From positions 18,624-82,623 of the forward strand of contig JAYVPO010000019.1 of assembly GCA_043757325.1 (NCBI GenBank): a stretch of DNA of 64,000 nucleotides, in the 5' to 3' direction. Below, piece after piece: positions 12,884 through 52,650 of the stretch (position 1 is the first letter of the stretch; each line of letters begins with the position of its first letter). The translations under genes and the position numbers were made by a program. The DNA is from a bacterium. GTDB taxonomy: Bacteria > Bdellovibrionota_B > Oligoflexia > Oligoflexales > RGVZ01. The notes under the pieces are model-generated. The model searched no databases. It had not been told where the DNA came from and worked only from the letters and a program-made list of their open reading frames with translations.

Positions 12884-12951
12884 TTTCAACTCCTGATTGT
12901 GATTCATCTGCAACAACTTCCAGCTTTTGATTTGCTGGTTACTCTTATTAA

Positions 12952-12967: not shown

Positions 12968-13053
12968 AATGTTAGTTGTGAATTATTCGGGACTTACGTT
13001 TTTGAAATGTGAATGGGTTACGACAAGTGTCAAAATTTTTGACAGATAAGACA

Positions 13054-13084
13054 TAAAAAAAGCCGCAGAATCTGCGGCTTTTTC
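13054..13084 (-). terminator. Rho-independent terminator (bidirectional-looking)
   Basis: agccgca/tgcggct stem flanked by an A7 run on the + strand (T7 on the minus strand). Sits 20 nt downstream of the stop of the 13100-13849 gene. Confidence 0.8.
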
Positions 13085-13099
13085 GTTTAATATCATCAG

Positions 13100-13849: not shown

Positions 13850-13895
13850 AATTTAAGCCCTCATAAAATCTATAAACGACATTTTCTTTAGTATT

Positions 13896-13911
13896 TGCAA
13901 AAACGAGGCCC
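13896..13911 (-). promoter_or_regulatory. Weaker sigma-54-type promoter candidate for the Gly/Pro lipoprotein gene
   Basis: The minus strand reads gGGCctc-gttt-TTGCA. GG-N10-GC spacing is correct and the -12 TTGCA is perfect. The -24 box is only GGC. About 47 nt upstream of the ATG. Confidence 0.3.
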
Positions 13912-13978
13912 GCTATAACCCTCTACAACCTTTACCAAAACACCGTTAAAAAGCGGCTAAAGCTTAGACACTGTCGAC

Positions 13979-14848: not shown

Positions 14849-14871
14849 TTTTTTAATGTTATCATAAAATA

Positions 14872-15477
14872 ATGCTTCACCGCCTAATTTTATTTTTTGT
14901 TGTTGTCTCAACCTCAAGTTTTGCTAGAGGTAGATCTTGCAAACTCATTTTTGAAGTCAACAAAACCAAAAGGGAAATCACAACCTCGGACACTTTGACT
15001 CTTTATCGCGGCGATCTTGTAAAACTAATAAAAACCTCACACTGTGGGTCTGATATGGTTTTTGAGTTTGTTGGTTTGAAACGCGATACTGAAAATCAAC
15101 CGCCGGTAAATGACCTTAATAACTTAATCGATACTGCCTATGCCTTTTCTGATGGAATTTATGCGCAAGGTAAATTTCAAATTTTTATGCGCAACTCTGC
15201 CGCCGAACTGAAAAGTCAAATTCAAGGTACGCTTTCAGAACCGGAGCTACACTATGCCGTGCTAACAACATCAGGAAGCGAAAGAATCGTAAGAAACGGC
15301 GATGTCATTGAGTTAATGGCGAAGCAAAAACTAAAAGTCTCACGGGTCGAAACAAATTTGACCGAAAAAAAGTTAATCAACGTGGAATTTAAAAACACGG
15401 GCCATTCAAACCGCGTTCAGTTGTTTGTAAAATATCAAAATTTTAAATTTGCAACTATTGAAACTCGGATCCGCTAA
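14872..15477 (+). CDS. Secreted hypothetical protein
   Basis: Signal peptide MLHRLILFFVVVSTSSFA. Its stop lies 2 nt before the start of the following kinase gene. Confidence 0.6.
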   Translation: MLHRLILFFVVVSTSSFARGRSCKLIFEVNKTKREITTSDTLTLYRGDLVKLIKTSHCGSDMVFEFVGLKRDTENQPPVNDLNNLIDTAYAFSDGIYAQGKFQIFMRNSAAELKSQIQGTLSEPELHYAVLTTSGSERIVRNGDVIELMAKQKLKVSRVETNLTEKKLINVEFKNTGHSNRVQLFVKYQNFKFATIETRIR

Positions 15478-38566: not shown

Positions 38567-39445
38567 ATGGGCCATTTTGTATTTTTGATATTTTTAGCTT
38601 TTTATAGTCCCTTAATATCTGCACAAGTAAATAAACCGCAAAAAACTTATTCCATAGGATTAATCGGCGATTCTATTTCTACAGGATTTGACTCAGAAAA
38701 ATTTTTAGACAACAGAGATTTAGTTTGGGCGACGGGTTTGGATGAAAGGGTGCAAAGTCACGCTTTACGTCTGCAAAAAATTCTAAACCCGTTTGAGGTC
38801 AAAGTTTTGGCTAAAAATGCAGCTAGAGCCAGCGCAAGGTCCAGTAGCTTAGATGTGCAGTGGTCTTGGCTTAAAAATTCCAATCCGGATTATTTAGCTG
38901 TTTTTATGGGCGCCAACGATATATGCAAACCATATGACACCGCAGGCAACACGATTCCGTATGAGGATGTTCAAGCGGCGTATATCAAGAATATCGAAGA
39001 TTTAATCGCAAAAGTACGTCAGCATAGTAAACAAACCCGAATTGTTTTTCTGGGAATTCCAGATGTAAATCGCGTGTTTCAACTTTTCGAAACATATAAA
39101 AACAATCCTAAATACCCATGGGTTAAATCCTGCCCAAATAAATGGCGTCTTGGAGGAATTGTGAATTACAGAATGTGTAAGCCTGCTCTTTACGAAGGTA
39201 CTGACGAAACATCTCGCAATGATTTCGAAAATGCTAGGCTAAGCGCCAACAAAGAGGTCGCAAAGTTGATTGCAGATTTACAAGATCCGTATATCAAGTA
39301 CGACAATAGCACCGCAATTGAAAAGTTTGAGATCGATTTTGTTTCGCCTCTCGATTGTTTTCATCCGTCTGTCCTTGGTCAGAAAACTTTGTCCGAGAAA
39401 ACTTTCGATGCGAAATTTGCTTTGAAAGATTTTTTCACAAAATGA
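38567..39445 (+). CDS. Secreted SGNH/GDSL-family esterase/lipase
   Basis: Signal peptide. Block I GLIGDSISTG, block III FMGANDIC, block V DCFHPS. Confidence 0.8.
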   Translation: MGHFVFLIFLAFYSPLISAQVNKPQKTYSIGLIGDSISTGFDSEKFLDNRDLVWATGLDERVQSHALRLQKILNPFEVKVLAKNAARASARSSSLDVQWSWLKNSNPDYLAVFMGANDICKPYDTAGNTIPYEDVQAAYIKNIEDLIAKVRQHSKQTRIVFLGIPDVNRVFQLFETYKNNPKYPWVKSCPNKWRLGGIVNYRMCKPALYEGTDETSRNDFENARLSANKEVAKLIADLQDPYIKYDNSTAIEKFEIDFVSPLDCFHPSVLGQKTLSEKTFDAKFALKDFFTK

Positions 39446-39957
39446 TGGATTTAACTTCTTATATAAGAAACATCGAAAATTTCCCGTCACCGGGAATATT
39501 ATTCAAAGATATAACCCCGTTATTGGCCGATCCCGAGGCTTTTAAATTTGCATTGGAACGGATGGCGGAATTTTTCGATCCAAAATCGGTTGATGTTATC
39601 GCGGCTATCGAATCAAGAGGCTTTATTTTGGGTGCACCGCTTGCTCTGGCTCTTAAAAAGCCTCTTGTGTTGCTAAGAAAACCGGGAAAACTTCCCTTCA
39701 AAACCATTTCGGAAAGTTATGACTTGGAATACGGTAAAGCCGAACTTCATATGCATATCGACAGCATCAAACCCGGAAATAAAGTTGCACTGATCGACGA
39801 CGTACTCGCCACGGGTGGCACAATGAAAGCCAGTGCGAATTTAATTGAAAAAAGCGGCGGCCAAGTGTTGGGCTGTGGATTTTTAATCGAAATTAATTTT
39901 TTACAGGGCCGCAAAAAACTTGAAGGTATCTACTGTAAAAGTGTCTTAGAATACTGA
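39442..39957 (+). CDS. apt: Adenine phosphoribosyltransferase
   Basis: Start at the ATG overlapping the upstream stop (ATGA). FPSPGILFKDITPLL and the PRPP loop VALIDDVLATGGT. Confidence 0.93.
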   Translation: MMDLTSYIRNIENFPSPGILFKDITPLLADPEAFKFALERMAEFFDPKSVDVIAAIESRGFILGAPLALALKKPLVLLRKPGKLPFKTISESYDLEYGKAELHMHIDSIKPGNKVALIDDVLATGGTMKASANLIEKSGGQVLGCGFLIEINFLQGRKKLEGIYCKSVLEY

Positions 39958-39972: not shown

Positions 39973-41508
39973 TTGTTAAGCTCCAAAATAGTTTTGCAAA
40001 ATAAATGGCCGCGGTTTTACTTTAAAGCAATTTTTTTTGAAGCGATTTTTTTCTGTCTTCCTATTCTGTGGTGGATGGGCCTGAATGTCATGGATTTGGC
40101 TCGTCTTTTTTTAATTGTTATTGCGTATCTTTACCTGAAATATCCTGAAGTTCGCAAATTTGCCTTTGTACCATCAAAACTTAAATTGAATTTACTTTGC
40201 ATTTTAATAATTTCTTTTCTTGTTCTTCTGCCGTTAGAGCTCAATTTAAGAAACTTTCTTGGGCATACCGTTAATGACACGAATATTTTTAATCAAGCAG
40301 CCGTTAACTTTGCAAATCATGGTCGATTCTGGGTAACTTTAAATCGTGCCGGACAAAACGATTTTTTAGCTGACCACGTTTCTCCAATACTACTGATACC
40401 GGCCTTTTTTTACAAACTCGGTATCCCTGCTTACTCAATTTCGATTGTCTTCCAGCAGATATGCTTTTTGATCGGGAGTTATTTTGCAATTAAGATCCTA
40501 AAAGAGTTAAAATTCGACATATTTAGTTCACTGCTTATACTTTTGCTTCTTCTCTATCAGCCAACTTTTCGAAGCCAACTTACCTGGAGTGTTCAGGTGG
40601 AATATATGAGTTTCCCCTTTATTGCTGCGAGCTATTTTTTTTGGTTAAAAGATAAAAATTGGCTTTCGGTTTTCACGGCTGTTTTAAGTTGGTCCTGCAA
40701 GGAATCCCTTGCTTGTTGGAGTGTTGGATTTGGTCTCTTTGCTTTGGCTTATTTGTTGGTTTATCGGCGGAATTACTTCTGGCAAAAAAGCCTGCCTTTT
40801 TTAGTTCTGACAATTTCAGGAAGCTTTTATTTTTACCTCGTCATTTACCACCACAGCCTTTTTTTTGGTCGGGATTACGACTATCTTTCAAGGCTTGATT
40901 TCACTTGGATTTGGCAAAATCCTTTGCTTGTTTTTAAAAAACTTAGATATCTATGTTTTTTCATTGCTAGTGTTTTCTTCATTCCAATTCAAAAACCTAA
41001 ATACTTGATATTTTTACTACCGGTGTTACCGAACTTTGGAATGAGTCTGGTATCTGGTTTTGACGATATGTACGAAATCAGCAAACAATATGCTTTATTT
41101 CCTGCTATGATTTTATTTCTGACCACTATTTTAGCAACAAAAGTATTGTTTCCAATTAAAAAAAACTCAATCCTGAAGCTACCACTGGTTCCATGTTGTC
41201 TACTTATGTGCTTTTATTTTTCCTTTCTTTCTTTAAGGCCGATGAAGATTTTTAAGGAGTGGATTTTTGAAGACTTCTATCACGCCGATGATTTTACTCA
41301 AATTCCACTTACAGAAAATGTCTTTGCAACCTTGAAATCAGCGCCATTTCTATTAGATCGCAAAGGAGTTTTTCTAAGCGATTACGATTCGAAATTGAGT
41401 TATGCTCTGGTACACCACTCGGAAATTTCTAAAATACCACAAACTATTATCGAGAAAACTTCAATCTGCCTTGATACAAAGGAATGGTATGCACGCTGTG
41501 CCAACTAA
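39973..41508 (+). CDS. Polytopic membrane protein, DUF2079-type (putative GT-C glycosyltransferase), paralog 1
   Basis: At least 10 predicted TM segments. DTNIFNQAAVNFANHGRFWVTLNR...FLADHVSPILLIPAFFYKLG and SWSCKESLACWSVGFGLFAL. TTG start. Confidence 0.8.
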   Translation: MLSSKIVLQNKWPRFYFKAIFFEAIFFCLPILWWMGLNVMDLARLFLIVIAYLYLKYPEVRKFAFVPSKLKLNLLCILIISFLVLLPLELNLRNFLGHTVNDTNIFNQAAVNFANHGRFWVTLNRAGQNDFLADHVSPILLIPAFFYKLGIPAYSISIVFQQICFLIGSYFAIKILKELKFDIFSSLLILLLLLYQPTFRSQLTWSVQVEYMSFPFIAASYFFWLKDKNWLSVFTAVLSWSCKESLACWSVGFGLFALAYLLVYRRNYFWQKSLPFLVLTISGSFYFYLVIYHHSLFFGRDYDYLSRLDFTWIWQNPLLVFKKLRYLCFFIASVFFIPIQKPKYLIFLLPVLPNFGMSLVSGFDDMYEISKQYALFPAMILFLTTILATKVLFPIKKNSILKLPLVPCCLLMCFYFSFLSLRPMKIFKEWIFEDFYHADDFTQIPLTENVFATLKSAPFLLDRKGVFLSDYDSKLSYALVHHSEISKIPQTIIEKTSICLDTKEWYARCAN

Positions 41509-43033
41509 AAAAAACAGCTCACACGGCTTGTTTATATTATTTTTAAGTTTACCTATCTGTTGGCTTTCAGGCCTAAGTATTATTGATATTTCACGTATTA
41601 TACTCGGAATGATTGTCATTTTATTTTTAAAATATCCGAAGATAGTATCGTTAGTTTTTCCAAATACGGTGTGGTCAAAAACTTCAATAACTACAGTGAT
41701 CGTCACCATTTTGATTTTTGTACCTTTAGTTTTAAATCTGCGAAATTTTATTGGTGAAAGTGTTGTTGATACACAGATCTTTAATCAAGCTGCTGTAAAT
41801 TTTGCTAATCACGGTCGTTTTTGGGTTAGTTTAAATCGATTTTGGCTAAGTGATTTTTTAGCAGATCACGTATCACCAATTTTAATAGCACCAGCTTTTC
41901 TTTATCGGTTAGGGATCCCGGCTTATAGTTGTGCGATATTTTTTCAAATGCTAACCACAGGTTTAGGTTCCTGGTGTTTATTTTATCTAGCCAAGATATT
42001 AAAATTTGACACCATGTCATCGCTTGCTGTCTGCCTTATATTCCTTTGTCTTGGACCCATTCGAAATCAACTAACGTGGAATGTGCAGGCCGAATATATG
42101 AGTTTTCCGTTTGTTGTTTTAACTTATTATTTTTGGGTAAAAAAATATCACTGGGTTGCAGTAACCGCGGCGGTTCTAAGCTGGTCATGTAAGGAAACTC
42201 TAGCCTGCTGGAGTGTGGGTTTTGGACTTTTCGCACTTGCGTATGATTTGATTGTTGTACGCCAAAAATCCTTTCGAACGGTTTTACCTTATTTGTTACT
42301 TGTGGTTTGCGGAACAGCGTATTTTTTTGGGTTGGTGATTTTTCATGAATTTATTTTTGGCCGAAGTTTTGATTACTTGGGCCGTATAGATTTGCAAAGT
42401 ATTTTTGAGAGTCCAAAGATATTTTTGGAAAAAATTGGGTATATCGTCTTCTTTTTGAGCGCGGGGCTCTTTTATTTTTTCTGGAAGAAAATAAATATGA
42501 TTTTTCTTTTGCCGATACTACCTCATTTTATTATAAGTTTTATTTCCAATTCATCGCATATGAGAGAACTAGGTCGCGAGTACGCACTTTTTCCTGCAAT
42601 GGCTGTGTATATTGCGACTATTACTGCTTTTGGCCTCAATAAAAATATTTCGAATTCCAAAGTTCGGCCTTTCACAATCCCAGCATGCGCGGGCGTATTT
42701 GTTTTGGCATTGTACTTTGCGTTTTTACCGTCAAAGCCAATGGGAGTTTTACATGATTATTTTGCATTGCCTAAACTGTCAACCGAGTCATTACAGTTTA
42801 TTCCGCGAGAAGCCGACGTTTATGTAAGTTTGCGAGCAGCACCGTTTCTACTGGATAGGCATATTCTTTACTTATACACGGCCCGAACGGAAAAGTGGCC
42901 TGAATTTGATTATCTTGTTATTCATCAAAACGAACTCAAAGATTTAACCCAAATAATTAAAGAAAAAACTAGGGCCTGTTTTGAATCTATTGATTGGCAT
43001 GTACGGTGCAAACTTAATGCCACGAAACCATAA
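41489..43033 (+). CDS. DUF2079-type membrane protein, paralog 2
   Basis: Very similar to paralog 1 in the conserved blocks (QIFNQAAVNFANHGRFWVSLNR...FLADHVSPILIAPAFLYRLG). ATG 41489 overlaps the end of paralog 1 by 20 nt. Confidence 0.8.
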   Translation: MHAVPTKKNSSHGLFILFLSLPICWLSGLSIIDISRIILGMIVILFLKYPKIVSLVFPNTVWSKTSITTVIVTILIFVPLVLNLRNFIGESVVDTQIFNQAAVNFANHGRFWVSLNRFWLSDFLADHVSPILIAPAFLYRLGIPAYSCAIFFQMLTTGLGSWCLFYLAKILKFDTMSSLAVCLIFLCLGPIRNQLTWNVQAEYMSFPFVVLTYYFWVKKYHWVAVTAAVLSWSCKETLACWSVGFGLFALAYDLIVVRQKSFRTVLPYLLLVVCGTAYFFGLVIFHEFIFGRSFDYLGRIDLQSIFESPKIFLEKIGYIVFFLSAGLFYFFWKKINMIFLLPILPHFIISFISNSSHMRELGREYALFPAMAVYIATITAFGLNKNISNSKVRPFTIPACAGVFVLALYFAFLPSKPMGVLHDYFALPKLSTESLQFIPREADVYVSLRAAPFLLDRHILYLYTARTEKWPEFDYLVIHQNELKDLTQIIKEKTRACFESIDWHVRCKLNATKP

Positions 43034-44534
43034 TAAAATATTGAACAAAATACTGCCTACAATTTTTTTTGCAATACCAACATTTTGGCTTCTAGGCATA
43101 AGTGTACAAGACCTGTGCAGAATTCTTACCCTCGGAATAATTATCCTTGGCTTTAACAGACCGAAATTTTGGGAAATTACGTTTGCAAACTCAAAGGCAA
43201 TTACCATGCTTTCTGGCGGCATCCTTTTCGGCCTTATTTTAATACTAACAGTAAGCCTTGCTCAGCGTGTATTTTTGGGAAGCACTTTTATCGATACTGT
43301 GATTTTTTCCGAAGCGGCTCAGAAATTCGCAACTTCAGGAGAGTTTACAACTTCGATTAACCGACTTTTTATCAATAATTTTATGGCGGATCACTTTGCG
43401 CCTATTCTTATTATACCTGCGTTTTTAATTAAACTAGGCATTCCGAACTATTGGAGTTCCATAGGCGCTCAGTTTTTATTTTTGATTTTTGGAGCACTTG
43501 CGGCTTTTAAACTTATGCGTGCACTGAATTACAACAATGCTTCCGCATCAATTTTGACAACGTTACTTTTTTTTCAAGCAACTGTACGCGGAAATCTTTA
43601 TTGGCAGGTTCAAATTGAGTACTGGTCTATTGGTTTTGTTTGTTTGGCATTTCTTTTTTGGTTTAAAGAAAAGCCCATCTTAAGTTTTTTGTTTGCGGTT
43701 CTAAGTTGGACGTGTAAAGAATCTCTGGCGCTATGGACGATTAGTTTTGCCCTTTTTGCAATAACTCATGAATTAGTATTTCGGCATGGTAGGTCAAAAA
43801 AAATCTACATTTTTCTATTATTTGTAGCGCTTGGTTATTTTTCTACGTTAATTTACGCGCATACGTTTTTATTTGGTCGGCGCTATGATTATCTTTCGCG
43901 GATCGAATGGCGAGGTATTTTTGAAGATTTAGCACAACTTCAAAATAAGGTTTTTTATTTAATTTTTTTTCTAGCATCGGTAGGATTTTATTTGCTGCGC
44001 ACAAAAAAAAGGTTTGTATATCTTTTGCCGCTTGCTTCGATTTTTGCTTTAGCGTTAGTTTCTAACAAAAGTGATATGCATGATATCACAAAACAGTATT
44101 CGTTTTTTCCAGGTTTTTTGATTTTTTTAATTACCGCAATTGCCTACTCCGATTCAGCTAAAAAAAGCGCCGAACATTTGATTTCGGTACCCATCCTACC
44201 CGCGGTTTTCTCCATGTGTTTTAGCTTTATGTTTTTTCCACTTCGACCCATTAAATTAATCCGAAATTATTCTCAAAATAAGTTAAACCCCAGTCCTTTA
44301 AATAATATTCCTATCACTTCTCGAGTTGTCGTCACCACAAAAAGTGCCCCGTTTTTGCTTGATAGAATGCAGCTAATTGAAATGCAGAATATCGGAGACA
44401 ATCTGGTTTCTTTTGATTTTATTGCTGTGGAGAAAAACGCAGAAAAAGACATACCTCAATCGATTAAAAATCAAACTAGATCTTTCCTAGTAGCACATGA
44501 CTGGATTATTCTAGCAAGGAGAACGGATCATTAA
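42999..44534 (+). CDS. DUF2079-type membrane protein, paralog 3 (more diverged)
   Basis: FSEAAQKFATSGEFTTSINR...FMADHFAPILIIPAFLIKLG and SWTCKESLALWTISFALFAI. The start is ATG 42999 (or 43017) and overlaps the end of paralog 2. Confidence 0.78.
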   Translation: MYGANLMPRNHNKILNKILPTIFFAIPTFWLLGISVQDLCRILTLGIIILGFNRPKFWEITFANSKAITMLSGGILFGLILILTVSLAQRVFLGSTFIDTVIFSEAAQKFATSGEFTTSINRLFINNFMADHFAPILIIPAFLIKLGIPNYWSSIGAQFLFLIFGALAAFKLMRALNYNNASASILTTLLFFQATVRGNLYWQVQIEYWSIGFVCLAFLFWFKEKPILSFLFAVLSWTCKESLALWTISFALFAITHELVFRHGRSKKIYIFLLFVALGYFSTLIYAHTFLFGRRYDYLSRIEWRGIFEDLAQLQNKVFYLIFFLASVGFYLLRTKKRFVYLLPLASIFALALVSNKSDMHDITKQYSFFPGFLIFLITAIAYSDSAKKSAEHLISVPILPAVFSMCFSFMFFPLRPIKLIRNYSQNKLNPSPLNNIPITSRVVVTTKSAPFLLDRMQLIEMQNIGDNLVSFDFIAVEKNAEKDIPQSIKNQTRSFLVAHDWIILARRTDH

Positions 44535-44601
44535 CTTTTCAAAAAAAAACACTTTTTTATCTTTTTTAACTTCCAAAAAAATTTTTGGGTTTTTTGTTTT
44601 A

Positions 44602-45963
44602 ATGGCGGTGTTTCGGATTGTTTCTGGTGTTATCTCTTCCATTCACCCAATTACATCGCCGCACACTTGGCGCCAAGTCGATACCTTGAGCGTAGCTTTT
44701 CGCTATTGGCAAAGGTGGACATTGGACACCGATCATACTTTGTGGTTTTTCCCTGCGGTGCTAAATTCATCCGACAAGTATGGGTTTATGTTAATGGAAT
44801 TTCCCCTGTTGAATATTTTTTTGGCCCCAGCGTTTTTTTTAGGGATTGAAACGGGCAGATCTGCAGCACATTTAATATTAATTTTTCTAGTGGTGGTTTT
44901 TTGCTTTTTAAATTTTAAAATTTGGCAGAAAAAATCTCTTCTGCAAACCGAAACTTCCTCCAAGTTAGTGGCTTTCGCGGCTGCGCTTTTTCCATTTTTT
45001 TCTTTTTGTTCGGCATTTACATTTAAGTGCATTCCCGATGTTTTTTCTGTACAGCTTGTTTTACTTGGCTTGGGACTTTTTGTGAGTAAATGTTCTCGAA
45101 AGCGTTTAATTTACGCAGTTGTTTGCGTTATTTTAGGTTGTTTAATTAAACCTGTTAGTATTTTTGTATTTGGATTTTTCATTGTTATTTTCCATGAAAC
45201 AAATTTTAAATTAAAGGCAAAAGTGATATTCCTATTTACCATTTGTGCTTTTTCTTGCTGGATTTATTACACTAAGCTTCTGCCTCATTTTTCTTACCTT
45301 GTCGAACTGGCGCCGAAATTTGCGGTTAAACCGCGTGGTTTTTTGGATAATCTCCAAGGACTTAAAGGTGAATCCTTTATTCAGGTTTTAGATTTTTTTA
45401 ACTATCATTTGATGGCGCCTTGGGTTTTGGTTCTCTTGTTGTTTGTAAATTACGCAAGACAAAAGCTGGTTTTGGTAGTTGGTGTAGTTTTATTGCAGAT
45501 CGTCAGCATTCTATTGGTCGACGGCCCGCATGCTTTTGTTCATGCTTATTATTTTTCAGCTTTGGCACCATTGTTTCTTTATTTGACTTTAAAAGTCGTG
45601 CTTTCTAATCGATTATTAGGTTTTTTAATTCTTTTACTGATTTTTGTAAGGAATTCAGAAAACACCATTGCGGATTTTAAGAATTTTAATCCTGCCTCAA
45701 AAATATCGGTAATGTTTGCAGAATGCGCAACTTTCAAATTTGAATTCCCCAATTTTCCATGGGGTAAAAATCTTACTTTTCGCAGTTCAAACGAAATTTA
45801 CCCTTTGCTTGGCCTGTGTTTTGGTGAGCGCCAAGACTCGAACACTTCCGACTTTGGATTTTATTATGGAAATGATCCATTACCCAGTGACTGTCGTGAA
45901 ATCGCAAGAAAACACGAGTTGAAGTTAGCAGACTGCAGCGGCAAAACAAGCTCAACCTTCTAA
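44602..45963 (+). CDS. Polytopic membrane protein, ArnT/PMT_2-like GT-C glycosyltransferase candidate
   Basis: N-terminal WRQVDTLSVAFRYW...GFMLMEFPLLNIFLAPAF resembles the WRQxDTAxIARNF...EFPLY signature of PMT_2/ArnT-like enzymes (recalled from memory). Many TM segments. Confidence 0.7.
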   Translation: MAVFRIVSGVISSIHPITSPHTWRQVDTLSVAFRYWQRWTLDTDHTLWFFPAVLNSSDKYGFMLMEFPLLNIFLAPAFFLGIETGRSAAHLILIFLVVVFCFLNFKIWQKKSLLQTETSSKLVAFAAALFPFFSFCSAFTFKCIPDVFSVQLVLLGLGLFVSKCSRKRLIYAVVCVILGCLIKPVSIFVFGFFIVIFHETNFKLKAKVIFLFTICAFSCWIYYTKLLPHFSYLVELAPKFAVKPRGFLDNLQGLKGESFIQVLDFFNYHLMAPWVLVLLLFVNYARQKLVLVVGVVLLQIVSILLVDGPHAFVHAYYFSALAPLFLYLTLKVVLSNRLLGFLILLLIFVRNSENTIADFKNFNPASKISVMFAECATFKFEFPNFPWGKNLTFRSSNEIYPLLGLCFGERQDSNTSDFGFYYGNDPLPSDCREIARKHELKLADCSGKTSSTF

Positions 45964-46068
45964 TTATCACGAATGCAAATTCTCAGTTTTCATTGCTTTT
46001 ATTTGACTTTCAGACTTGATAAATTAAAGATATCATCAAACGACTTAAACCACTTTCGAAATAAAATT

Positions 46069-46779
46069 ATGAAGATATTATTTTTACTGCTGCTTACGGT
46101 TGCCTATGCTAACACATCGAGTGCGAGTGAATATCATCAGTATTTTCTCTTGCGCCGTGGAAAGCAAATTTTAAAACAAGATTCTATCCAATCCAAAGCG
46201 CACTTAACCGGATTGCAGTCCGATTTAGTGTTGCCCTATTTAGGACGTTTACAAATTTCATTCGACATGTCTCCAAATGTCACAAACGATACGAGCCTTG
46301 GAATAGAAAGCCTGCAGTGGAATCGTGGCACAGTTGGAAAGCCTTTCACAAAAGATTTTAAAAGCAGTTCTATTGACTTTACTCTTAGGGCTAGGTTGAC
46401 TAATTACCGCAGCAATTTGCCTACTATTGTGGATGGCGTAGAAACTGAAATCACCAACTTGGATATTGTCAATTGTGGCATTGCGGTAGCCGAACTGGGT
46501 TACGAGAAAAGAATTGCAACCGACTGGCTAAGAATTTATTACAACTACGGGTTATCTGTTCTTCGTAAGTCCCCCACGAAAGTCTGGGAGCATCAGGCAG
46601 GTGCCCATTATTTTCTTCCACTTTTCTCTACAGCTTCGCATTTTTCTGTTTTGATTAACGCATTTGCAGAGTTCGACAGTTTTAAATTTAGAAAACCTTC
46701 CGAGTCAGATGAAACCATCGATAGTGAACTCCGCGGCTCGACAGTTTTTGTCGGAGTCGGTTTAGGTTTTTCATTTTAA
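46069..46779 (+). CDS. Small outer-membrane beta-barrel-like protein
   Basis: Start at MKILFLLLLTVAYANTSSA (signal peptide). Alternating-hydrophobic strands. C-terminal GVGLGFSF ends in Phe. Confidence 0.65.
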   Translation: MKILFLLLLTVAYANTSSASEYHQYFLLRRGKQILKQDSIQSKAHLTGLQSDLVLPYLGRLQISFDMSPNVTNDTSLGIESLQWNRGTVGKPFTKDFKSSSIDFTLRARLTNYRSNLPTIVDGVETEITNLDIVNCGIAVAELGYEKRIATDWLRIYYNYGLSVLRKSPTKVWEHQAGAHYFLPLFSTASHFSVLINAFAEFDSFKFRKPSESDETIDSELRGSTVFVGVGLGFSF

Positions 46780-48131
46780 AATATTTTAAGACATTCAAGA
46801 TCTTTTAAAAAATCCGCAAAAGCTTTTTCTTGATTTTCTCGTGCTCGAAGGATGGCAGATGGATGGGTCGTTACTAATATTTTTGCATTATTTTTCAACT
46901 GAATAAGACTCCCGCGGACGTCTTTAATTTTTACAACTTTGCCTAAAATAGCTTGGGCAGCAGTTGCCCCTAAACAAACAATTATTTCAGGTTTTATAAG
47001 TTCCAACTCGTGATCAAGCCAGGATTTGCAAACAGCAATTTCTCTGGATTCAGGATTTTGATGGATACGCTTTCGACCTTCACCGGGTGTCCACTTAAAA
47101 TGTTTGACCGCATTCGTAATGTAAATCTGTTGACGATTTATCCCCAATATTTCCAATGCTCGATCAAGAAGCTGTCCTGCCGGGCCAACAAAAGGCAGTC
47201 CTGCTAAATCTTCTTGATCACCGGGCTGTTCTCCGACAAAAACAATTTTCGCATCTTTGGGCCCTTCTCCAAAAACGGTTTGCGTTGCATTTTTATGAAG
47301 GGGACAAAAAGTGCAACTTTTCGCAAGAGTTTTTAAATCCTCTAAAGTTGAGTTTACGGTCGTATGCTCTTGGATAAATTTTTCTGGAGAAGGCGGCTGC
47401 CAGGAAAGCATTTCCTCAACACGCTGTGGAGCTTTTTGTAACATAGATTCGATAATTTTGGTTTCGGGCAAAGTTTTCCAATGACGTACCGGCATTTCGT
47501 TTTTCATGGCTTTAATTTTAATGCGCGCAGGATTAAAAATATGCGCATAGTAAGTTAACCAATAGGTTTCAAAATCATCTTTTAAGCAAGGATCGATTTC
47601 GACTCCAGCCGAATAAATTAATTTTTTGCCGTCCCAATGCATCGACTCGTCAGGTGTCAAAATCGACCATTTCATAATTGCAAACCGCTCAACAAAAAAT
47701 GGCGCCGCAAGACGGACCACAAAATGATCGGGATTGTGCCAAGCGATATAAGTGTTTTCGTCAACTTGTTTAAATCGCACAAACGCTTTCATTTTATGGG
47801 TATCACGATGAACCGCTTTGGCACGCCGCTGAAGTTTTATAATGTCGTCATCTGTTAAATTAAGCATCAGAGTTTTGTCTTCGAATTGTAACCGCCACAA
47901 AAGCCGATACAACAAATCCCACCTGTCTTCTGATCTGAATAATCCGGCCTTTTCAGCTAATGAGACAAACTCACGCGGCACAAAAATTTGACTTTTTTGC
48001 GGATAGGAAATTTCTGTGCTGAGATCTCTAAGCTGCCAATTAACTTCTTCGGGCATTATTTTTAAATTAACCAGCGCTCGTGCAACCTTTCGCCAATTTG
48101 CAAAAGTTCCATCGATCGCGACGGTTTTCAC
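46776..48131 (-). CDS. DUF4130 domain fused to a family-4 uracil-DNA glycosylase of UdgX type
   Basis: Motif A GEQPGDQEDLAGLPFVGPAGQLLD, motif B HPSAILR, and the UdgX-type insertion GRKRIHQNP (RKRIH at 47061-47075). N-terminal FVRFKQV...WHNPDHFVV...FFVERF (DUF4130/TIGR03915-like). Confidence 0.85.
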   Translation of the reverse strand: MKTVAIDGTFANWRKVARALVNLKIMPEEVNWQLRDLSTEISYPQKSQIFVPREFVSLAEKAGLFRSEDRWDLLYRLLWRLQFEDKTLMLNLTDDDIIKLQRRAKAVHRDTHKMKAFVRFKQVDENTYIAWHNPDHFVVRLAAPFFVERFAIMKWSILTPDESMHWDGKKLIYSAGVEIDPCLKDDFETYWLTYYAHIFNPARIKIKAMKNEMPVRHWKTLPETKIIESMLQKAPQRVEEMLSWQPPSPEKFIQEHTTVNSTLEDLKTLAKSCTFCPLHKNATQTVFGEGPKDAKIVFVGEQPGDQEDLAGLPFVGPAGQLLDRALEILGINRQQIYITNAVKHFKWTPGEGRKRIHQNPESREIAVCKSWLDHELELIKPEIIVCLGATAAQAILGKVVKIKDVRGSLIQLKNNAKILVTTHPSAILRARENQEKAFADFLKDLECLKIF

Positions 48132-49390
48132 ACAAACTCTCGAATAATAGGCTCGCCAGTAACGGGATCATCAAACAAACTACGTTGAAAATACTTTGGC
48201 AGATGAATTTCATTTTCGAAAATTTTTAATTGCGTTCTGTTTTCTGAAATGGGCTCGTTAACTGTCACAAAGAACTTCACTTTTTCCAAAGAAACTCGCA
48301 TCTTTTTTAAATCCGTCCAGGTCAATAAATGATGCTTACGGACTTGCAGTATTTTTTTAACTGATCCAACACCTAAACCGGGAACTCGCAGAAGTGCTTT
48401 TTCTTGAGCTCGATTTACGTCGACTGGAAAAAAGTGTTTATTACGTAAAGCCCAGCTTAATTTTGGGTCATTTTTTAAGTCTAAATTTGGTTCGGCTTCA
48501 GTGGTTAATTCTTCAACTGCAAATCCGTAGAACCTCAATAACCAGTCTGCTTGGTATAGCCGATGCTCCCGCACTAAAGGCGGCGAAACCAACGGCAAAC
48601 GAGGGTCAGCGTCGGGAATTGGACTAAAAGCAGAGTAATAAACGCGCCGCAGATTATGCTTTTCGTATAAGTGATCTGCGGTTTTTAGAATCGCAGCGTC
48701 CGTGCTTGGAGTGGCTCCAACGATCATTTGAGTGCTCTGGCCACCAGGCGCAAAAATTGCTTTTTTGTCTCCGTCTTTTTTGCGTTCGAAAGAATTTGTA
48801 ATTTCGGATTTGATTGTTGTCATAACGTTTTCAATCGACACGTGGTCTTTCGCTGGAGCGAGTTGATTGAGATCTGCTTGAGTTGGCAACTCGATATTTG
48901 CGCTCAACCGATCAGCCCATTTTCCGGCTTCAATAAATAACTCCGGTGTAGCACCAGCAACCGCTTTTAGGTGAATATACCCACCAAATCGGTGTTTTGT
49001 GCGCAGATTTTTGGCAACTTTTATAAGCTCTTCCATTGTTGCATCAGGCGAACGTTGAACTCCTGAGCTCAAAAATAATCCTTCAATGTAATTGCGTTTA
49101 TAGAATTCAAGAGTAAGAGTCACAACCTCATCAGGAGAGAATTTTGCCCGAGGAATTTGACTAGAAACACGGTTGATACAATAAGTGCAGTCGAATATAC
49201 AGGCGTTGGTTAAAAGGATTTTGAGTAACGAGACACAACGCCCATCTGGAGTATAACTATGACAGATGCCGATCTTCTCGGTGGATCCGAGGCCGTTTTT
49301 AAAGCGTTTTTGCTTAACTCCACTGCTGGCACAGGAAGCATCATATTTGGCTGCGTCTGCAAGAATAGCGAGTTTTTTTTCGAGTTCCAT
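48128..49390 (-). CDS. Putative DNA modification/repair radical SAM protein (TIGR03916-like)
   Basis: CIFDCTYC CxxxCxxC cluster motif. C-terminal helix-hairpin-helix-like LLRVPGLGVGSVKKIL. 4-nt overlap with the UdgX-fusion gene. Confidence 0.85.
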   Translation of the reverse strand: MELEKKLAILADAAKYDASCASSGVKQKRFKNGLGSTEKIGICHSYTPDGRCVSLLKILLTNACIFDCTYCINRVSSQIPRAKFSPDEVVTLTLEFYKRNYIEGLFLSSGVQRSPDATMEELIKVAKNLRTKHRFGGYIHLKAVAGATPELFIEAGKWADRLSANIELPTQADLNQLAPAKDHVSIENVMTTIKSEITNSFERKKDGDKKAIFAPGGQSTQMIVGATPSTDAAILKTADHLYEKHNLRRVYYSAFSPIPDADPRLPLVSPPLVREHRLYQADWLLRFYGFAVEELTTEAEPNLDLKNDPKLSWALRNKHFFPVDVNRAQEKALLRVPGLGVGSVKKILQVRKHHLLTWTDLKKMRVSLEKVKFFVTVNEPISENRTQLKIFENEIHLPKYFQRSLFDDPVTGEPIIREFV

Positions 49391-49558: not shown

Positions 49559-52048
49559 TCAATTGAACTGACTTACTCCAAGTGGTGCTGAACTAACAGT
49601 GCCTGGTCCACAAGCGACTGCAGTTGAAAAACAATATCCATATAAAACTGTTAAAACACCCCTGAATGGATCTTTTACCAGGTCGATTTTACCGAAACTT
49701 GTGTAGGAGATATAATTGGTTGAAAATAGGGAATTTGTACTTGAATTCCAACGCGGCGATCCTAAAGGATCAAAACGATAGGACTGAATCTTCATAGGAG
49801 TATTTTGAGTTGTATTCATCCCGTCAACAAATGCGAGAAGGCCATTGCCTAAATTATCGATAGAGGCATTTAAAAGGCCAGAATATAAGTTGATTGCATT
49901 GGAGTTAACGTTAAATTGATCTCGAATCGTAATCCCGTCTTTATCTAAAATTGCAGCACCCAAGTTATTTGGAGTAGGTAAGTTAGTGACCATAGAATAA
50001 GCGAATAAAACATCACCTTGATCGTTAGAATCAATTGATAATGCTGGTGCATATATTGATCCCGCAGAAGGGTTAAAAATTGACGTAGCGGCAGGGCTGA
50101 AGTTTGCACCATTTCTAGTCACCGCAAAATATACGTTCCCTGTTGTCGAAAGTGCTGATAAGAGAATCCTACCGTCTGGTGTATTTTTAGCTTTGATTTG
50201 ACCTGCAATGATATTTGTAAATAATGGACTCGTCGACCAAGCGCCAGCATTTCTGTAGGCCACGTTAATGATACCGCTAGTTTCTTCATACATAAGAATT
50301 CCACGATCGCTAATTGACGCACCACTATTACTGAATGCCTGAACACTTCTACAAACCGATGAAAGGAAATTTGATGCACCATAGGGATTATTAGCGGTAG
50401 ACAGTCCTGAAAATCCATAACAATTGGTGCTATCCGATAAACCAACAGAAAAGGTGTTATTAATCCCGTCAAAATAGACACTACCAGACAATTTTACAAT
50501 ATTATTTGACGGTATGGAGTTAGAAAATAAGGAGGGAGAACTGCAAAGCATATCAACAAGAAGGCAAATGATTATGTCAGTTTTTGTTGAGCCGAGATTG
50601 TATTTTGAATAAATTAAAAAAGATTGATTTAAAGAATTTGTGACAACATCAAAAGCTATAGGATATGAACTTGAGACAATTAGGGATTCTAAATTGGACC
50701 AGCTGCCGCTGTTAGATCTGTTTGAAAATATCTTGTTGAAACCGCCTGAGTAGACGCCGAAAATAACTCCAGTGGTTGAGACTTGGTTCGAAAAAAACTT
50801 CGCTTGAATCGGGTTGGCTCCGCTCATTGAAGGATAAGTCGGGTTAATTCTACTAGGCGTTCCTAACACTCCTCGATTAATTTGGGCGGTAGATCCATAA
50901 TACATCGAGCCTACATTATCACTCCAGTAAGCTAAAAGCTGTCCCGGCATTAATCCTTTAATAATTCGTGCATCATTAAAACTATTCGCGTTGGCATAGC
51001 TAGGAGTCAATGCTGGACTTCCACTGAGCTGATTCCATATTCCATCTCGTGTTTTAAAAGTTATCGTTGATGGCGTTGCAAAATTTTGACCGTAAGTATC
51101 TTTTAAATCCGGTAGCAATCGGAAATTCTGCCACGCGTTTAAAGGAAACATCCCGTCTGGAGGGAAAATGGTAATGCCTAACTTATCTTGGCTCACTTGG
51201 GTCGGTGGCGAAAAGGTCTGAGCCGTGAAATTTTGCTGATATAGTTTTATATTTGCGCCAACTGTAGACGAATCGATAGGGTTATTAAATTTTAAAAATG
51301 CCTGTGCATAGGGGTCGACTCCAGTAGAATTTTGCCTAGGATTTTGATCCACAAGACTTAATGCAGAAAATTGAGTGGCTGGTGCCGGCGTCGGCGTCGG
51401 AGCTTTCTTTTTGTCAGCAGCGGTTGAAATTTTAAGAATATTTGCTGGAAAAATTCGAGTCCCGGTTTGGGCTGCTGGAATCTTCATGGCTTGATAGGAG
51501 CCAAAATATTTGGTGGTCCAAGCAATAGATTTATTCGAAACTTTAATTTGATCAGTAACAAAAACTTGAATCTTTCCATCCCCTCCATAAATTAAACCAA
51601 CAACACCCATTTTTGTCTCGTCTAGTGCAAATTCAGTCAATCCGGCCGAACCCAGACCTATGGAAATTGTGAACGGATTGGTGCTAGGTGTGTTTGACTG
51701 GGAAGTGGTTATACTTACGGTCTGACTACTACTTTCGGCACTAAATCCCAAGGTCGACTGAGGCATAGCAGACGTCATCGAAATACCTTCCTCGACCGTA
51801 ACCTGAGTTCCGGATGCCAAAGAATTGGGGGAGAATGTAATTGTAGAATCTTTAACCGCAGATGTGACGCTTCCGGTTATAACGTTTACTCGATCTGGAT
51901 TGTACGAAACTGTTTTAACACCATCTACGTCAGAAAGTGCAGGTGCTACAAAAAGCCTTGAACCGCCAGTGCCATTCTGATCGCCAAATTTTGAGGGGCC
52001 GCCGTAGCAACCAGCGATAAAACCCAGTATCAGCATTTTGTAATACAT
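49559..52048 (-). CDS. Large surface lipoprotein with Ig-like (SbsA/Big_5-type) segment and probable beta-propeller/beta-rich body
   Basis: Lipobox GFIAGC. Ser/Thr/Asn/Gly-rich. LVDQNPRQNSTGVDPYAQAFLKFNNPIDSSTV resembles a Big_5 domain start. Confidence 0.75.
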   Translation of the reverse strand: MYYKMLILGFIAGCYGGPSKFGDQNGTGGSRLFVAPALSDVDGVKTVSYNPDRVNVITGSVTSAVKDSTITFSPNSLASGTQVTVEEGISMTSAMPQSTLGFSAESSSQTVSITTSQSNTPSTNPFTISIGLGSAGLTEFALDETKMGVVGLIYGGDGKIQVFVTDQIKVSNKSIAWTTKYFGSYQAMKIPAAQTGTRIFPANILKISTAADKKKAPTPTPAPATQFSALSLVDQNPRQNSTGVDPYAQAFLKFNNPIDSSTVGANIKLYQQNFTAQTFSPPTQVSQDKLGITIFPPDGMFPLNAWQNFRLLPDLKDTYGQNFATPSTITFKTRDGIWNQLSGSPALTPSYANANSFNDARIIKGLMPGQLLAYWSDNVGSMYYGSTAQINRGVLGTPSRINPTYPSMSGANPIQAKFFSNQVSTTGVIFGVYSGGFNKIFSNRSNSGSWSNLESLIVSSSYPIAFDVVTNSLNQSFLIYSKYNLGSTKTDIIICLLVDMLCSSPSLFSNSIPSNNIVKLSGSVYFDGINNTFSVGLSDSTNCYGFSGLSTANNPYGASNFLSSVCRSVQAFSNSGASISDRGILMYEETSGIINVAYRNAGAWSTSPLFTNIIAGQIKAKNTPDGRILLSALSTTGNVYFAVTRNGANFSPAATSIFNPSAGSIYAPALSIDSNDQGDVLFAYSMVTNLPTPNNLGAAILDKDGITIRDQFNVNSNAINLYSGLLNASIDNLGNGLLAFVDGMNTTQNTPMKIQSYRFDPLGSPRWNSSTNSLFSTNYISYTSFGKIDLVKDPFRGVLTVLYGYCFSTAVACGPGTVSSAPLGVSQFN

Positions 52049-52167
52049 ACATCACCTCTTAGTAATACTCTCGGATGACGGTGGTAGAAACTTAGTAGGA
52101 ATTTAAAGATTTGGAGTTTAAGCTATTTTTATCATACATTTTAGCTGGTTAACATCTTCATAACCTC

Positions 52168-52534
52168 CGGTTAACATTGGATGCAGTTTTCTGCGCAGGT
52201 TAATGTTTTCTGAACTTGTTACATCTACGTCTGTCCTTGTCTTTGACATCGGCTTTTTCCTTGCCTTTGGGATGATCGTGATTTTCGCCTAGAGGCGTTT
52301 GCCGTACAACTTTTCGTGCGCTGTTATGAGAATATCGAGAACATCGTTGGATATTTAAATAGCAAGTTTTTCTGGCTTAGCTTTGGGAATCCGCTCATGG
52401 CAAAGCCTCTCGGCGAGGATCACCTTCACCGCAAAGGCAACGAAAAAGTCGATGTCGAAGGAAAGGACAAACGTTAAGGTAACAAGTCCAGAAAACATCA
52501 AACCGCCGCGGAAAATTGCATCCAATGTTAGGCA
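52168..52534. repeat. Long imperfect foldback element, family 2 copy D
   Basis: Arms taacattggatgcag...gaggcgtttgcc (52172-52304) and ggcaaagcctc...tgcatccaatgtta (52399-52530) are complementary at roughly four-fifths of positions by eye. The arms are homologous to 5495-5885. Confidence 0.8.
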
Positions 52535-52650
52535 GAGTTTATTAAGAAGTTACCTCGAGGCTGATTTGAAGCGGCTTCAATAAGGAATATTTATGTCAGA
52601 AGGATTGTGAAAATGGAGTAACTATATTTAGAAATCAACCCTAAATTATT

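What the first reader, a model, noticed from the sequence alone, without database searches (positions are those of the whole stretch)
39973..46779. Tandem triplication of DUF2079-type polytopic membrane proteins followed by an ArnT/PMT-like GT-C protein and a small beta-barrel
Seen: three consecutive paralogs of about 511-514 aa share the blocks (I/F)(F/N)xxAAxxFAxxGxFxxxxNR...(F/L)xADH(V/F)(S/A)PIL..PAF and SW(S/T)CKESLAxW. Paralogs 1 and 2 are very close in these blocks. Paralog 3 is clearly older.

They are followed on the same strand by a 453-aa multi-TM protein with a WRQxDT...EFPL signature, and then a 236-aa protein ending in GLGFSF.

Established knowledge: DUF2079 and PMT_2/ArnT proteins belong to the GT-C superfamily, which uses lipid-linked sugar donors on the periplasmic face.

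Inference: an uncharacterised envelope glycosylation module whose acceptor specificity has diversified by duplication. No nucleotide-sugar or polyprenyl-phosphate glycosyltransferase genes are visible nearby, so the donor supply must be encoded elsewhere.
Basis: partly seen in the sequence, partly recalled or inferred. Interest (0 to 1): 0.55.

Follow-up and report, generated by a model that had tools for sequence, protein, structure and literature searches.

The report
Cluster of four GT-C-like membrane proteins
Three old tandem copies of an uncharacterised membrane-protein family (DUF2079) sit next to a fourth membrane protein whose predicted fold is that of lipid-linked-sugar glycosyltransferases. 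It is probably a cell-envelope sugar-decoration locus in an uncultured bacterium: real and poorly studied, but of a familiar general kind.

Summary
Window 39973-46779 carries five co-directional, tightly packed genes.

- **P1-P3, the three paralogs (511, 514 and 517 aa):** they are 34-44% identical to each other. Each exceeds the Pfam DUF2079 gathering score.
- **P4 (453 aa):** it has no Pfam, NCBIfam or PDB sequence match. A confident AlphaFold model (pLDDT 87.6) matches only GT-C glycosyltransferases, with ArnT as the best hit.
- **P4 family:** about 150 clusters at 50% identity. In 7 of 16 other loci a GT2 gene lies beside or close to it (in one only as fragments), and in three of these the GT2 is fused to a GtrA domain. 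This is the classic supplier of polyprenyl-phosphate sugar.
- **P5 (236 aa):** it has a signal peptide and an OMP-like C-terminus. The beta-barrel fold could not be verified, and P5 is not conserved next to P4.

The DUF2079-P4 adjacency recurs only in the closest relative (57% identity). It is absent from 15 more distant loci. The GT-C fold of the DUF2079 copies could not be confirmed because the model was poor (pLDDT 45.6).

Synonymous sites between the paralogs are saturated and GC3 matches the neighbouring genes. The duplication is therefore old, and I see no compositional sign of recent import.

Verdict: a plausible periplasmic glycosylation locus made of unclassified GT-C-type enzymes. 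Interest is moderate to low.

The parts
39973..41508 (+). P1, DUF2079 paralog (511 aa, TTG start, 15 nt after the apt stop)
   Evidence: Pfam PF09852 scores 34.5 bits against a cut-off of 28.2. It is 44% identical to P2 and 37% to P3. It is a singleton cluster in the 15-billion-protein collection.
41489..43033 (+). P2, DUF2079 paralog (514 aa from ATG 41489; the longest ORF starts at 41402). It overlaps the end of P1 by 20 nt.
   Evidence: Pfam PF09852 scores 58.7-59 bits, covering profile positions 11-423 of 459. The 514-aa form is the one on record. The overlap was computed.
42981..44534 (+). P3, DUF2079 paralog (517 aa, TTG start). It overlaps the end of P2 by 53 nt. It lacks the C-terminal Cys pair seen in P1 and P2.
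   Evidence: Pfam PF09852 scores 50 bits. It is 37% identical to P1 and 34% to P2.
44602..45963 (+). P4, a polytopic membrane protein with a GT-C (class A-like) predicted fold and a Cys-containing C-terminal periplasmic domain. The family has no Pfam or NCBIfam model.
   Evidence: The AF2 model has pLDDT 87.6 and pTM 0.89. The high-probability Foldseek PDB hits are all GT-C, with ArnT 5EZM best at E 1.2e-4 and TMq 0.51. No sequence-family hit was found. In a 102-member alignment, R24, E66, P145, D146, H314 and Y316 are invariant.
44527..44601 (+). Possible 5' extension of P4. These in-frame codons encode KK plus the missing half of TM1. There is no ATG, GTG or TTG; the candidate starts ATC 44527 and ATT 44530 overlap the P3 stop codon.
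   Evidence: In-frame translation gives IINFSKKNTFLSFLTSKKIFGFFVL, which runs parallel to the N-terminus of the 57%-identical homolog P0002. The DNA is identical in the Logan assembly L001. This is an inference, not a demonstrated start.
46069..46779 (+). P5, a 236-aa exported protein and candidate outer-membrane protein (signal peptide; C-terminal ...VFVGVGLGFSF)
   Evidence: The sequence is and the called gene. A hydropathy scan finds no TM helix. There is no Pfam, NCBIfam or PDB hit. The amphipathic-strand test was not significant. No homolog occurs next to any P4 homolog.
38567..39957 (+). Upstream co-directional genes: a secreted GDSL/SGNH hydrolase (38567-39445) and adenine phosphoribosyltransferase (about 39442-39957). 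Their membership in the functional unit is uncertain.
   Evidence: Pfam Lipase_GDSL_2 and Pribosyltran. NCBIfam apt equivalog.

Best explanation
The locus encodes four inner-membrane enzymes of the GT-C type. Three are anciently duplicated DUF2079 proteins and one belongs to a separate, unnamed family (P4).

Each probably works on the periplasmic face. It would take a sugar from a polyprenyl-phosphate-linked donor and attach it to an envelope acceptor such as LPS or another surface glycan, a lipid or a protein. The donor would be made and flipped by enzymes encoded elsewhere in this genome. In other lineages a GT2-GtrA fusion next to the P4 homolog does that job.

The genes are packed tightly enough to be co-transcribed and partly translationally coupled. 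All three DUF2079 copies keep the same invariant polar residues, so all are probably active. They may add different residues or linkages, or act on different acceptors.

- **Shown:** the paralogy, DUF2079 membership, the GT-C fold of P4, and the association of the P4 family with GT2 genes.
- **Inferred:** the GT-C nature of the DUF2079 copies, glycosyltransferase activity, a periplasmic site of action, co-operation of the four proteins, and any role for P5.
For: **DUF2079 copies**
- All three hit DUF2079 above the gathering score.
- They share 120 invariant columns. These include D102-T103 just after the third hydrophobic segment, A133-D134-H135, E210, K243-E244, R300/D303 and D462-R463.
- Synonymous sites are saturated (same-codon fraction 0.37-0.44). 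The blocks identical in protein are only 73-82% identical in DNA. The conservation therefore reflects purifying selection on three old genes, not gene conversion.

**P4**
- The model is confident. Eleven of the top 12 PDB matches are GT-C enzymes, and every match with probability 0.8 or higher is one.
- Acidic and basic residues are invariant at the expected positions, and four Cys at 90% or higher sit in the C-terminal domain, which fits a periplasmic location.

**Context of P4 homologs**
- A GT2+GtrA_DPMS_TM fusion lies directly adjacent in L002, L009 and L018.
- GT2 fragments are present in L008.
- A GT2 overlaps the start of the P4 homolog in L017, inside a sugar-epimerase/GT cluster.
- In L016 the homolog sits in a cluster with Bac_transf, Epimerase_2, four GT2 genes and a PMT_2 gene.
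- A GT2 lies 1.2 kb away in L011.

**Linkage**
- P1/P2 and P2/P3 overlap, the apt-P1 gap is 15 nt and the P3-P4 gap is 67 nt or less.
- In the closest relative, a DUF2079 paralog overlaps the P4 homolog by 26 nt.
- GC3 of P1-P5 (0.32-0.40) matches the flanking genes (0.33-0.37). The G+C dip therefore comes from amino-acid composition and does not point to recent import.

**Literature.** The three-component logic (lipid-sugar synthase, flippase, GT-C) is documented in PMC11127046.
Against: - No enzyme activity, donor or acceptor is known for DUF2079 or for the P4 family. No paper in the searched library mentions DUF2079.
- The DUF2079 model was poor (pLDDT 45.6). Its best PDB matches (ALG12 at E 0.058, then PimE, ALG6 and PIG-U) are not significant.
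- Profile-profile comparison between the DUF2079 copies and the P4 family is insignificant (probability 16% and 1%).
- No donor-synthesis or flippase gene was found in the window.
- The DUF2079-P4 linkage is absent from 15 of the 16 other loci that are informative.
- D27 of the WRQxDT motif is Asp in only 91 of 102 family members.
- Promoter and terminator scans do not differ from shuffled sequence, so operon structure is inferred only from gene spacing.
Confidence: 0.5

Rival explanations
1. Two unrelated systems happen to be neighbours. P4 works alone, as it does in most lineages, with a GT2-GtrA synthase encoded elsewhere. The DUF2079 array is an independent unit with its own substrate. P5 and the GDSL protein are bystanders.
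For: - P4 homologs in 15 of the 16 other informative loci have no DUF2079 gene within 6-10 kb (or up to the contig end), and none has a P5 homolog.
- The sequence profiles of the two families are unrelated.
- In the closest relative the gene downstream of P4 is a different, lipoprotein-like ORF.
Against: - In the nearest relative a DUF2079 gene overlaps the P4 homolog by 26 nt.
- In the window the P3-P4 gap is at most 67 nt. An in-frame, homolog-like TM1 coding stretch reaches back to the P3 stop codon.
- No convincing terminator lies between the genes.
Confidence: 0.25
2. The three DUF2079 proteins are subunits of one hetero-oligomeric enzyme. This would resemble EmbA-EmbB or Pmt1-Pmt2, rather than three enzymes with separate acceptor specificities.
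For: - The overlapping reading frames favour equimolar, coupled synthesis.
- All three have been retained for a long time.
- Known tandem GT-C paralogs form heterodimers: EmbA/B (7BVG) and Pmt1/2 (6P2R), both listed in PMC11127046. This is otherwise established knowledge.
Against: - There is no structural or interaction evidence here.
- All three keep the full set of candidate catalytic residues. Scaffold subunits would not need them, although EmbA and EmbB also both keep theirs.
Confidence: 0.15
3. The DUF2079 proteins are not glycosyltransferases. They could instead be polytopic proteins with another role, such as a glycan polymerase or ligase, a lipid-linked-intermediate transporter, or a scaffold like PIG-U.
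For: - DUF2079 has no characterised member in the searched literature.
- The fold test was inconclusive.
- PIG-U, a non-catalytic protein related to GT-C, is among the weak structural matches.
Against: - Acidic and His residues are invariant in the long loop after the third hydrophobic segment. The conserved polar residues resemble GT-C active-site architecture.
- The only PDB matches with TM-scores clearly above background are GT-C-type proteins, at 0.23-0.34 against 0.17 or less for all others.
Confidence: 0.1

Closest known systems
ArnT (GT83, PDB 5EZM) and other class-A GT-C enzymes (PglB/AglB/STT3, EmbB, AftA)
   Same: P4's confident model aligns best to ArnT (TMq 0.51, probability 1.00), followed by AglB, ALG9, STT3, PglB, EmbB and AftA/B. 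P4 has a short TM1. A juxtamembrane helix follows, carrying a conserved R-Q-x-D-T motif. An invariant Glu (MEFPL) then sits at the start of the next helix, with invariant PD and KP motifs further on.
   Different: No sequence-level relation to any solved GT-C or to Pfam PMT_2/PMT/STT3 was found. P4 is smaller, at about 450-480 aa. It has its own C-terminal domain with four conserved Cys and the motif PWGxxxxFRS...YPLLGLCFGER. Donor and acceptor are unknown.
Three-component extracytoplasmic glycosylation systems (GtrA/GtrB/Gtr*, CsbB/GtcA/YfhO, GT136 systems)
   Same: P4 homologs in other lineages sit next to a GT2 fused to a GtrA_DPMS_TM domain. That is synthase plus putative flippase plus GT-C. 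The logic is described in PMC11127046.
   Different: In this window neither the synthase nor the flippase is present. Instead the GT-C gene follows three DUF2079 genes. No O-antigen or other glycan backbone genes are nearby.
Mycobacterial embC-embA-embB (three tandem paralogous GT-C arabinosyltransferases)
   Same: Three adjacent, co-directional paralogous polytopic GT-C-type genes, retained over a long time and each with a C-terminal extracytoplasmic domain. This is established knowledge; the Emb structures are cited in PMC11127046.
   Different: The family is different (DUF2079, about 510 aa, against GT53, about 1,100 aa). No carbohydrate-binding-module-type C-terminal domain was identified. 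The organism appears to be a Gram-negative, Oligoflexia-like lineage, judged from the MAG names of P4 homolog loci. No biochemical data exist.
Pfam DUF2079 (PF09852)
   Same: All three paralogs score above the gathering threshold, and P2 covers almost the whole profile.
   Different: They are very divergent members (34-59 bits). Word-index searches of 5.8 billion proteins returned only the window's own proteins. Two metagenome scans found nothing. The only relative seen is the partial gene in L015.

Membership tests
Pfam DUF2079 (PF09852) | Whole-protein HMM score at or above the gathering score of 28.2 bits | tested here: met
   P1 scores 34.5 bits, P2 58.7-59 and P3 50.0.
GT-C superfamily (applied to P4) | Polytopic membrane core whose fold matches solved GT-C enzymes | tested here: met
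GT-C superfamily (applied to P4) | Conserved acidic residue(s) in the first extracytoplasmic loop after TM1 | tested here: met
   D27 (WRQxDT) is Asp in 91 of 102 members. E66 (MEFPL) and D146 are present in 102 of 102. That the loop faces the periplasm is inferred from the model and the GT-C analogy, not measured.
GT-C superfamily (applied to P4) | Uses a polyprenyl-phosphate-linked sugar donor | not testable with these tools
   The support is indirect. A GT2 or GT2+GtrA gene lies beside or close to P4 homologs in 7 of 16 loci, in L008 only as fragments.
ArnT/PMT_2 (GT83) or PMT (GT39) family (applied to P4) | Sequence-profile match to PF13231, PF02366 or a solved member | tested here: not met
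   No Pfam or NCBIfam hit was found even at E up to 10. A profile of 18 homologs found no PDB chain at E up to 10. Ten further family members also gave no GT-C Pfam hit.
GT-C superfamily (applied to DUF2079 paralogs P1-P3) | GT-C fold | tested here: inconclusive
   Only a 3-sequence alignment was available, and the model reached pLDDT 45.6. The best Foldseek hits were ALG12 (E 0.058), PimE, ALG6 and PIG-U, with TMq 0.23-0.34 against 0.17 or less for non-GT-C hits. hhalign against the P4 family was insignificant. Pfam's assignment of PF09852 to clan GT-C is from my memory and was not verified here.
GT-C superfamily (applied to DUF2079 paralogs P1-P3) | Conserved Asp in a long extracytoplasmic loop early in the protein | tested here: met
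   D102-T103 and D134-H135 (P1 numbering) are invariant in the roughly 55-residue loop after the third hydrophobic segment. The orientation is inferred from the positive-inside rule only.
Outer-membrane beta-barrel protein (applied to P5) | N-terminal signal peptide, and a C-terminal beta-signal ending in an aromatic residue | tested here: met
   The N-terminus reads MKILFLLLLTVAYANTSSA. The C-terminus reads ...TVFVGVGLGFSF, with alternating hydrophobic residues and a terminal Phe. A hydropathy scan finds no TM helix.
Outer-membrane beta-barrel protein (applied to P5) | Beta-barrel fold, or a match to an OMP family | tested here: inconclusive
   There is no Pfam, NCBIfam or PDB match. The crude amphipathic-strand count was 4 against 2.4 +/- 1.3 in shuffles.
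Gtr-type three-component glycosylation locus | A polyprenyl-phosphate sugar synthase (GT2) and a flippase encoded with the GT-C gene | tested here: not met
   No GT2 or GtrA was found in the window by tblastn or by Pfam. They are present at homologous loci L002, L009 and L018.

The most novel reading that the evidence does not exclude
The four proteins could form a dedicated periplasmic assembly line, in the manner of Emb/Aft enzymes. It would be built from two GT-C families that have never been characterised. It would make or decorate a lineage-specific envelope glycan in an Oligoflexia/Bdellovibrionota-like bacterium, with P3 and P4 translationally coupled through a non-canonical start codon. 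P4 would then found a new CAZy GT-C family, and DUF2079 would receive its first function.
Probability: 0.12. Interest if true: 0.6.

Novelty: new member of a known kind. Interest (0 to 1): 0.35.

Why it matters
GT-C enzymes build and decorate bacterial surface glycans, which shape antigenicity, phage and predator-prey recognition, and antibiotic resistance (ArnT is an example).

Two points give the locus some value.

- **P4 family.** It has about 150 clusters at 50% identity and 1,064 hits at E up to 0.001. It has no Pfam or NCBIfam model, yet it has a confident GT-C fold and a recurring GT2-GtrA partner. That makes it a well-defined candidate for a new glycosyltransferase family.
- **DUF2079.** I found no experimental work on it in the searched literature. 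A genome with three retained copies offers a natural system for asking what it does.

Beyond this the locus follows a familiar pattern, and no mechanism here is unexpected.

Tried and rejected
- **Horizontal transfer.** The G+C dip to 0.35-0.37 is not a sign of foreign origin. GC3 matches the neighbouring genes, and the dip lies in codon positions 1 and 2 of these Phe/Leu/Ile-rich proteins.
- **Recent duplication or gene conversion between P1 and P2.** Rejected, because synonymous sites are saturated.
- **P4 as a fourth, diverged DUF2079 copy.** Rejected by hhalign (probability 16% and 1%).
- **Structure of a DUF2079 paralog.** The only alignment available had 3 sequences, and the model was unusable at normal standards.
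- **A deeper DUF2079 alignment.** Two word-index searches returned only the window's own proteins. Two metagenome scans found nothing.
- **Literature.** Searches for DUF2079 and PF09852 gave nothing useful. Papers that mention clan CL0111 do not list DUF2079.
- **Promoter and terminator scan.** Counts were no different from shuffled sequence.
- **P5 strand-periodicity test.** Not significant.
- **Organism identity.** The NCBI record could not be retrieved. Lineage is guessed only from the MAG names attached to P4 homolog loci.

Full report
**1. What is in the sequence**

Window 39973-46779 holds five co-directional ORFs on the + strand.

| Gene | Coordinates | Length | Note |
|---|---|---|---|
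| P1 | 39973-41508 | 511 aa | TTG start |
| P2 | 41489-43033 | 514 aa | longest ORF starts at 41402; the 514-aa form is the one in the protein collection |
| P3 | 42981-44534 | 517 aa | TTG start |
| P4 | 44602-45963 | 453 aa | see section 5 for a possible earlier start |
| P5 | 46069-46779 | 236 aa | the 268-aa ORF from 45973 merely adds 32 residues in front of an obvious signal peptide |

Upstream on the same strand lie rpoB/rpoC-size ORFs, rpsG and fusA (identified from their translations). They are followed by a secreted GDSL/SGNH hydrolase and adenine phosphoribosyltransferase. Downstream and convergent is a UdgX-family/TIGR03915 fusion with its TIGR03916 radical-SAM partner.

Gene packing is tight:
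- GDSL and apt overlap.
- The apt-P1 gap is 15 nt.
- P1/P2 overlap by 20 nt and P2/P3 by 53 nt.
- The P3-P4 gap is 67 nt and the P4-P5 gap is 105 nt.

A consensus scan for promoters and terminators gave counts no different from shuffled sequence. Operon structure is therefore inferred from spacing only.

**2. The triplication**

The three proteins are clear paralogs: P1/P2 44% identity (E 6e-146), P1/P3 37% (3e-100), P2/P3 34% (5e-96). Each exceeds the Pfam DUF2079 gathering score of 28.2 bits, at 34.5, 58.7 and 50.0 bits.

The duplications are old:
- Among identical residues, only 37-44% use the same codon.
- The longest identical peptide blocks of P1 and P2 are just 73-82% identical in DNA.

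The blocks are therefore held by selection on the proteins, not by gene conversion.

GC3 of P1-P5 (0.32-0.40) equals that of the flanking genes (0.33-0.37). The local G+C dip therefore comes from amino-acid composition and does not point to recent import.

Over 232 shared columns of the C-terminal ~270 residues, the three copies are equidistant at 33-35%. The partial paralog from the closest relative (L015) is 43% identical to P1 over the same columns. This suggests that the copies diverged before the two organisms split.

This DUF2079 subfamily is almost an orphan:
- Two word-index searches of 5.8 billion proteins returned only the window's own proteins.
- Two metagenome scans found nothing.
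- All the proteins are singleton clusters.

**3. Are the DUF2079 copies GT-C enzymes?**

I could not show this. With only three sequences to align, AlphaFold gave pLDDT 45.6.

The best Foldseek matches of that poor model are GT-C-type proteins: ALG12 (E 0.058, TMq 0.34), PimE, ALG6 and PIG-U. Unrelated folds stay at TMq 0.17 or below. This is suggestive but not significant.

Sequence and rough topology do fit a GT-C enzyme. About three N-terminal hydrophobic segments come first. A loop of roughly 55 residues follows, with invariant D102-T103 and A133-D134-H135. Further invariant polar residues follow (E210, K243-E244, R300/D303), and a C-terminal alpha/beta domain carries an invariant LLDR.

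That Pfam places PF09852 in the GT-C clan is my recollection. No paper in the library mentions DUF2079.

**4. P4**

P4 has no Pfam or NCBIfam hit even at E up to 10. A profile of 18 homologs finds no PDB chain either.

A word-index search found 19 relatives. An exhaustive profile search found 153 cluster representatives at E up to 1e-30 and 1,064 at E up to 0.001. Ten of these, scanned against Pfam, had no GT-C hit.

With the 18-sequence alignment, AlphaFold gave a confident model (pLDDT 87.6, pTM 0.89). Its PDB matches are ArnT 5EZM (E 1.2e-4, TMq 0.51), AglB, ALG9, STT3, PglB, EmbB, AftA and AftB. Every match with probability 0.8 or higher is a GT-C enzyme.

In a 102-member alignment:
- R24, E66, P145-D146, H314 and Y316 are invariant.
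- Q25, T28, K183-P184, Y317 and four Cys in the C-terminal domain are conserved at 90% or more.
- D27 of the WRQxDT motif is Asp in 91 of 102 members.

The 'ArnT/PMT-like GT-C' label is therefore right for the fold and wrong for family membership.

**5. A start-codon oddity**

The annotated ATG leaves P4 with a TM1 of only 13 residues. The 29 in-frame codons upstream contain no ATG, GTG or TTG. They encode ...KKNTFLSFLTSKKIFGFFVL, which continues TM1 and parallels the N-terminus of the 57%-identical homolog.

A start at ATC 44527 or ATT 44530 would overlap the P3 stop codon. It would give a protein of 477-478 aa, in line with homologs of 457-480 aa. This would couple P3 and P4, as the 26-nt overlap does in L015. 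It is an inference.

**6. Genomic context elsewhere**

I examined 16 informative loci carrying P4 homologs (L002-L013 and L015-L018).

A GT2 gene lies beside or close to the homolog in seven of them:
- A GT2+GtrA_DPMS_TM fusion is directly adjacent in L002, L009 and L018.
- GT2-GtrA fragments are present in L008.
- A GT2 overlaps the start of the homolog in L017, within a cluster of epimerases and GTs.
- L016 is a glycan cluster with Bac_transf, Epimerase_2, four GT2 genes and a PMT_2 gene.
- A GT2 lies 1.2 kb away in L011.

A DedA/VTT gene precedes the homolog in L005. SAM methyltransferases recur in L008, L009, L012 and L017.

This is the pattern of the known three-component extracytoplasmic glycosylation systems (PMC11127046). 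It is the best evidence that the P4 family uses a polyprenyl-phosphate sugar.

A DUF2079 gene is adjacent only in L015, the closest relative. It is absent from the other 15 loci, and P5 is never found.

Pfam scans of the window ORFs of 150 aa or more found no GT2, GtrA or sugar-nucleotide gene; I did not scan the ORFs of the ribosomal-protein and RNA-polymerase block.

**7. P5**

P5 has a signal peptide, no TM helix, and a C-terminus (...VFVGVGLGFSF) typical of outer-membrane proteins. It has no family or PDB match. My crude strand-periodicity test was not significant. The beta-barrel reading is plausible but unverified, and nothing supports P5 belonging to the module.

**8. Interpretation**

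The most likely reading (about 0.5) is a locus of four periplasm-facing GT-C-type transferases that use lipid-linked sugars made elsewhere. The DUF2079 copies would have separate roles and would be functionally coupled to P4 in this lineage.

Rivals:
- Two independent systems that merely neighbour each other (0.25).
- A hetero-oligomer of the three copies, as in EmbA/B (0.15).
- DUF2079 proteins that are not transferases (0.10).

The nearest architectural analogue is embC-embA-embB. The nearest mechanistic analogue is the Gtr-type three-component system. The nearest structural analogue of P4 is ArnT.

**9. Verdict**

This is a new member of a known kind: unclassified GT-C-type families in a familiar role.

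Interest is 0.35. The value lies in the P4 family as a candidate new GT family, and in DUF2079 having no described function in the literature I could search.

Noticed in passing
window 44515-44601: The 29 in-frame codons before the annotated P4 ATG contain no canonical start. They encode KK plus a hydrophobic run that completes TM1, as in homologs. ATC 44527 and ATT 44530 overlap the P3 stop codon, so a non-canonical start or translational coupling is possible. The DNA is identical in the Logan assembly L001.
   Followed up: partly
window 46776-49390 (- strand): A UdgX-family uracil-DNA-binding domain is fused to a TIGR03915 domain. Next to it is its TIGR03916 radical-SAM partner. This is the known 'DNA modification/repair' gene pair. 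It is convergent with P5, and the two gene ends overlap by 4 nt.
   Followed up: partly
window 38567-39445: A GDSL/SGNH hydrolase with a signal peptide lies directly upstream and overlaps the apt start. SGNH enzymes often act on glycan O-acyl groups, so it might belong with the envelope genes. However, apt lies in between and there is no synteny evidence.
   Followed up: no
L009:1267-4546; L008:6596-9241; L018:6001-8523; L002:10001-12580: A recurring arrangement: the P4 homolog sits with a GT2+GtrA_DPMS_TM fusion. In L009 and L008 a class-I SAM methyltransferase follows. In L008 only fragments of the GT2-GtrA gene are detectable, which suggests a frameshift or decay.
   Followed up: partly
L016:1-13365: Here the P4 homolog sits inside a full glycan-biosynthesis cluster. 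The cluster has Bac_transf, Epimerase_2, four GT2 genes, a PMT_2 GT-C gene and several polytopic proteins with no Pfam match.
   Followed up: no
window 41470-41508, 42990-43033; L015:1-822: P1, P2 and the L015 paralog end with a conserved Cys pair (C-x9-C, as in ICLDTKEWYARC). P3 has lost both Cys residues. This hints at a periplasmic disulfide in the C-terminal domain of some copies only.
   Followed up: no
L015:1-822: The DUF2079 gene next to the P4 homolog in the closest relative is most similar to P1 (43%), not to P3 (36%). P3 is the copy that occupies that position in the window. Gene order or copy number therefore differs between the two organisms.
   Followed up: partly
window 10267-14917: This stretch holds an M78/IrrE-like peptidase, three ORFs with no Pfam hit and a tyrosine recombinase. 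It may be a small integrated element.
   Followed up: no
window 49559-54180 (- strand): An 829-aa Ser/Thr/Asn-rich protein has only a weak Big_5 hit, and a 509-aa protein carries a TGase_elicitor domain. Neither has an NCBIfam match.
   Followed up: no
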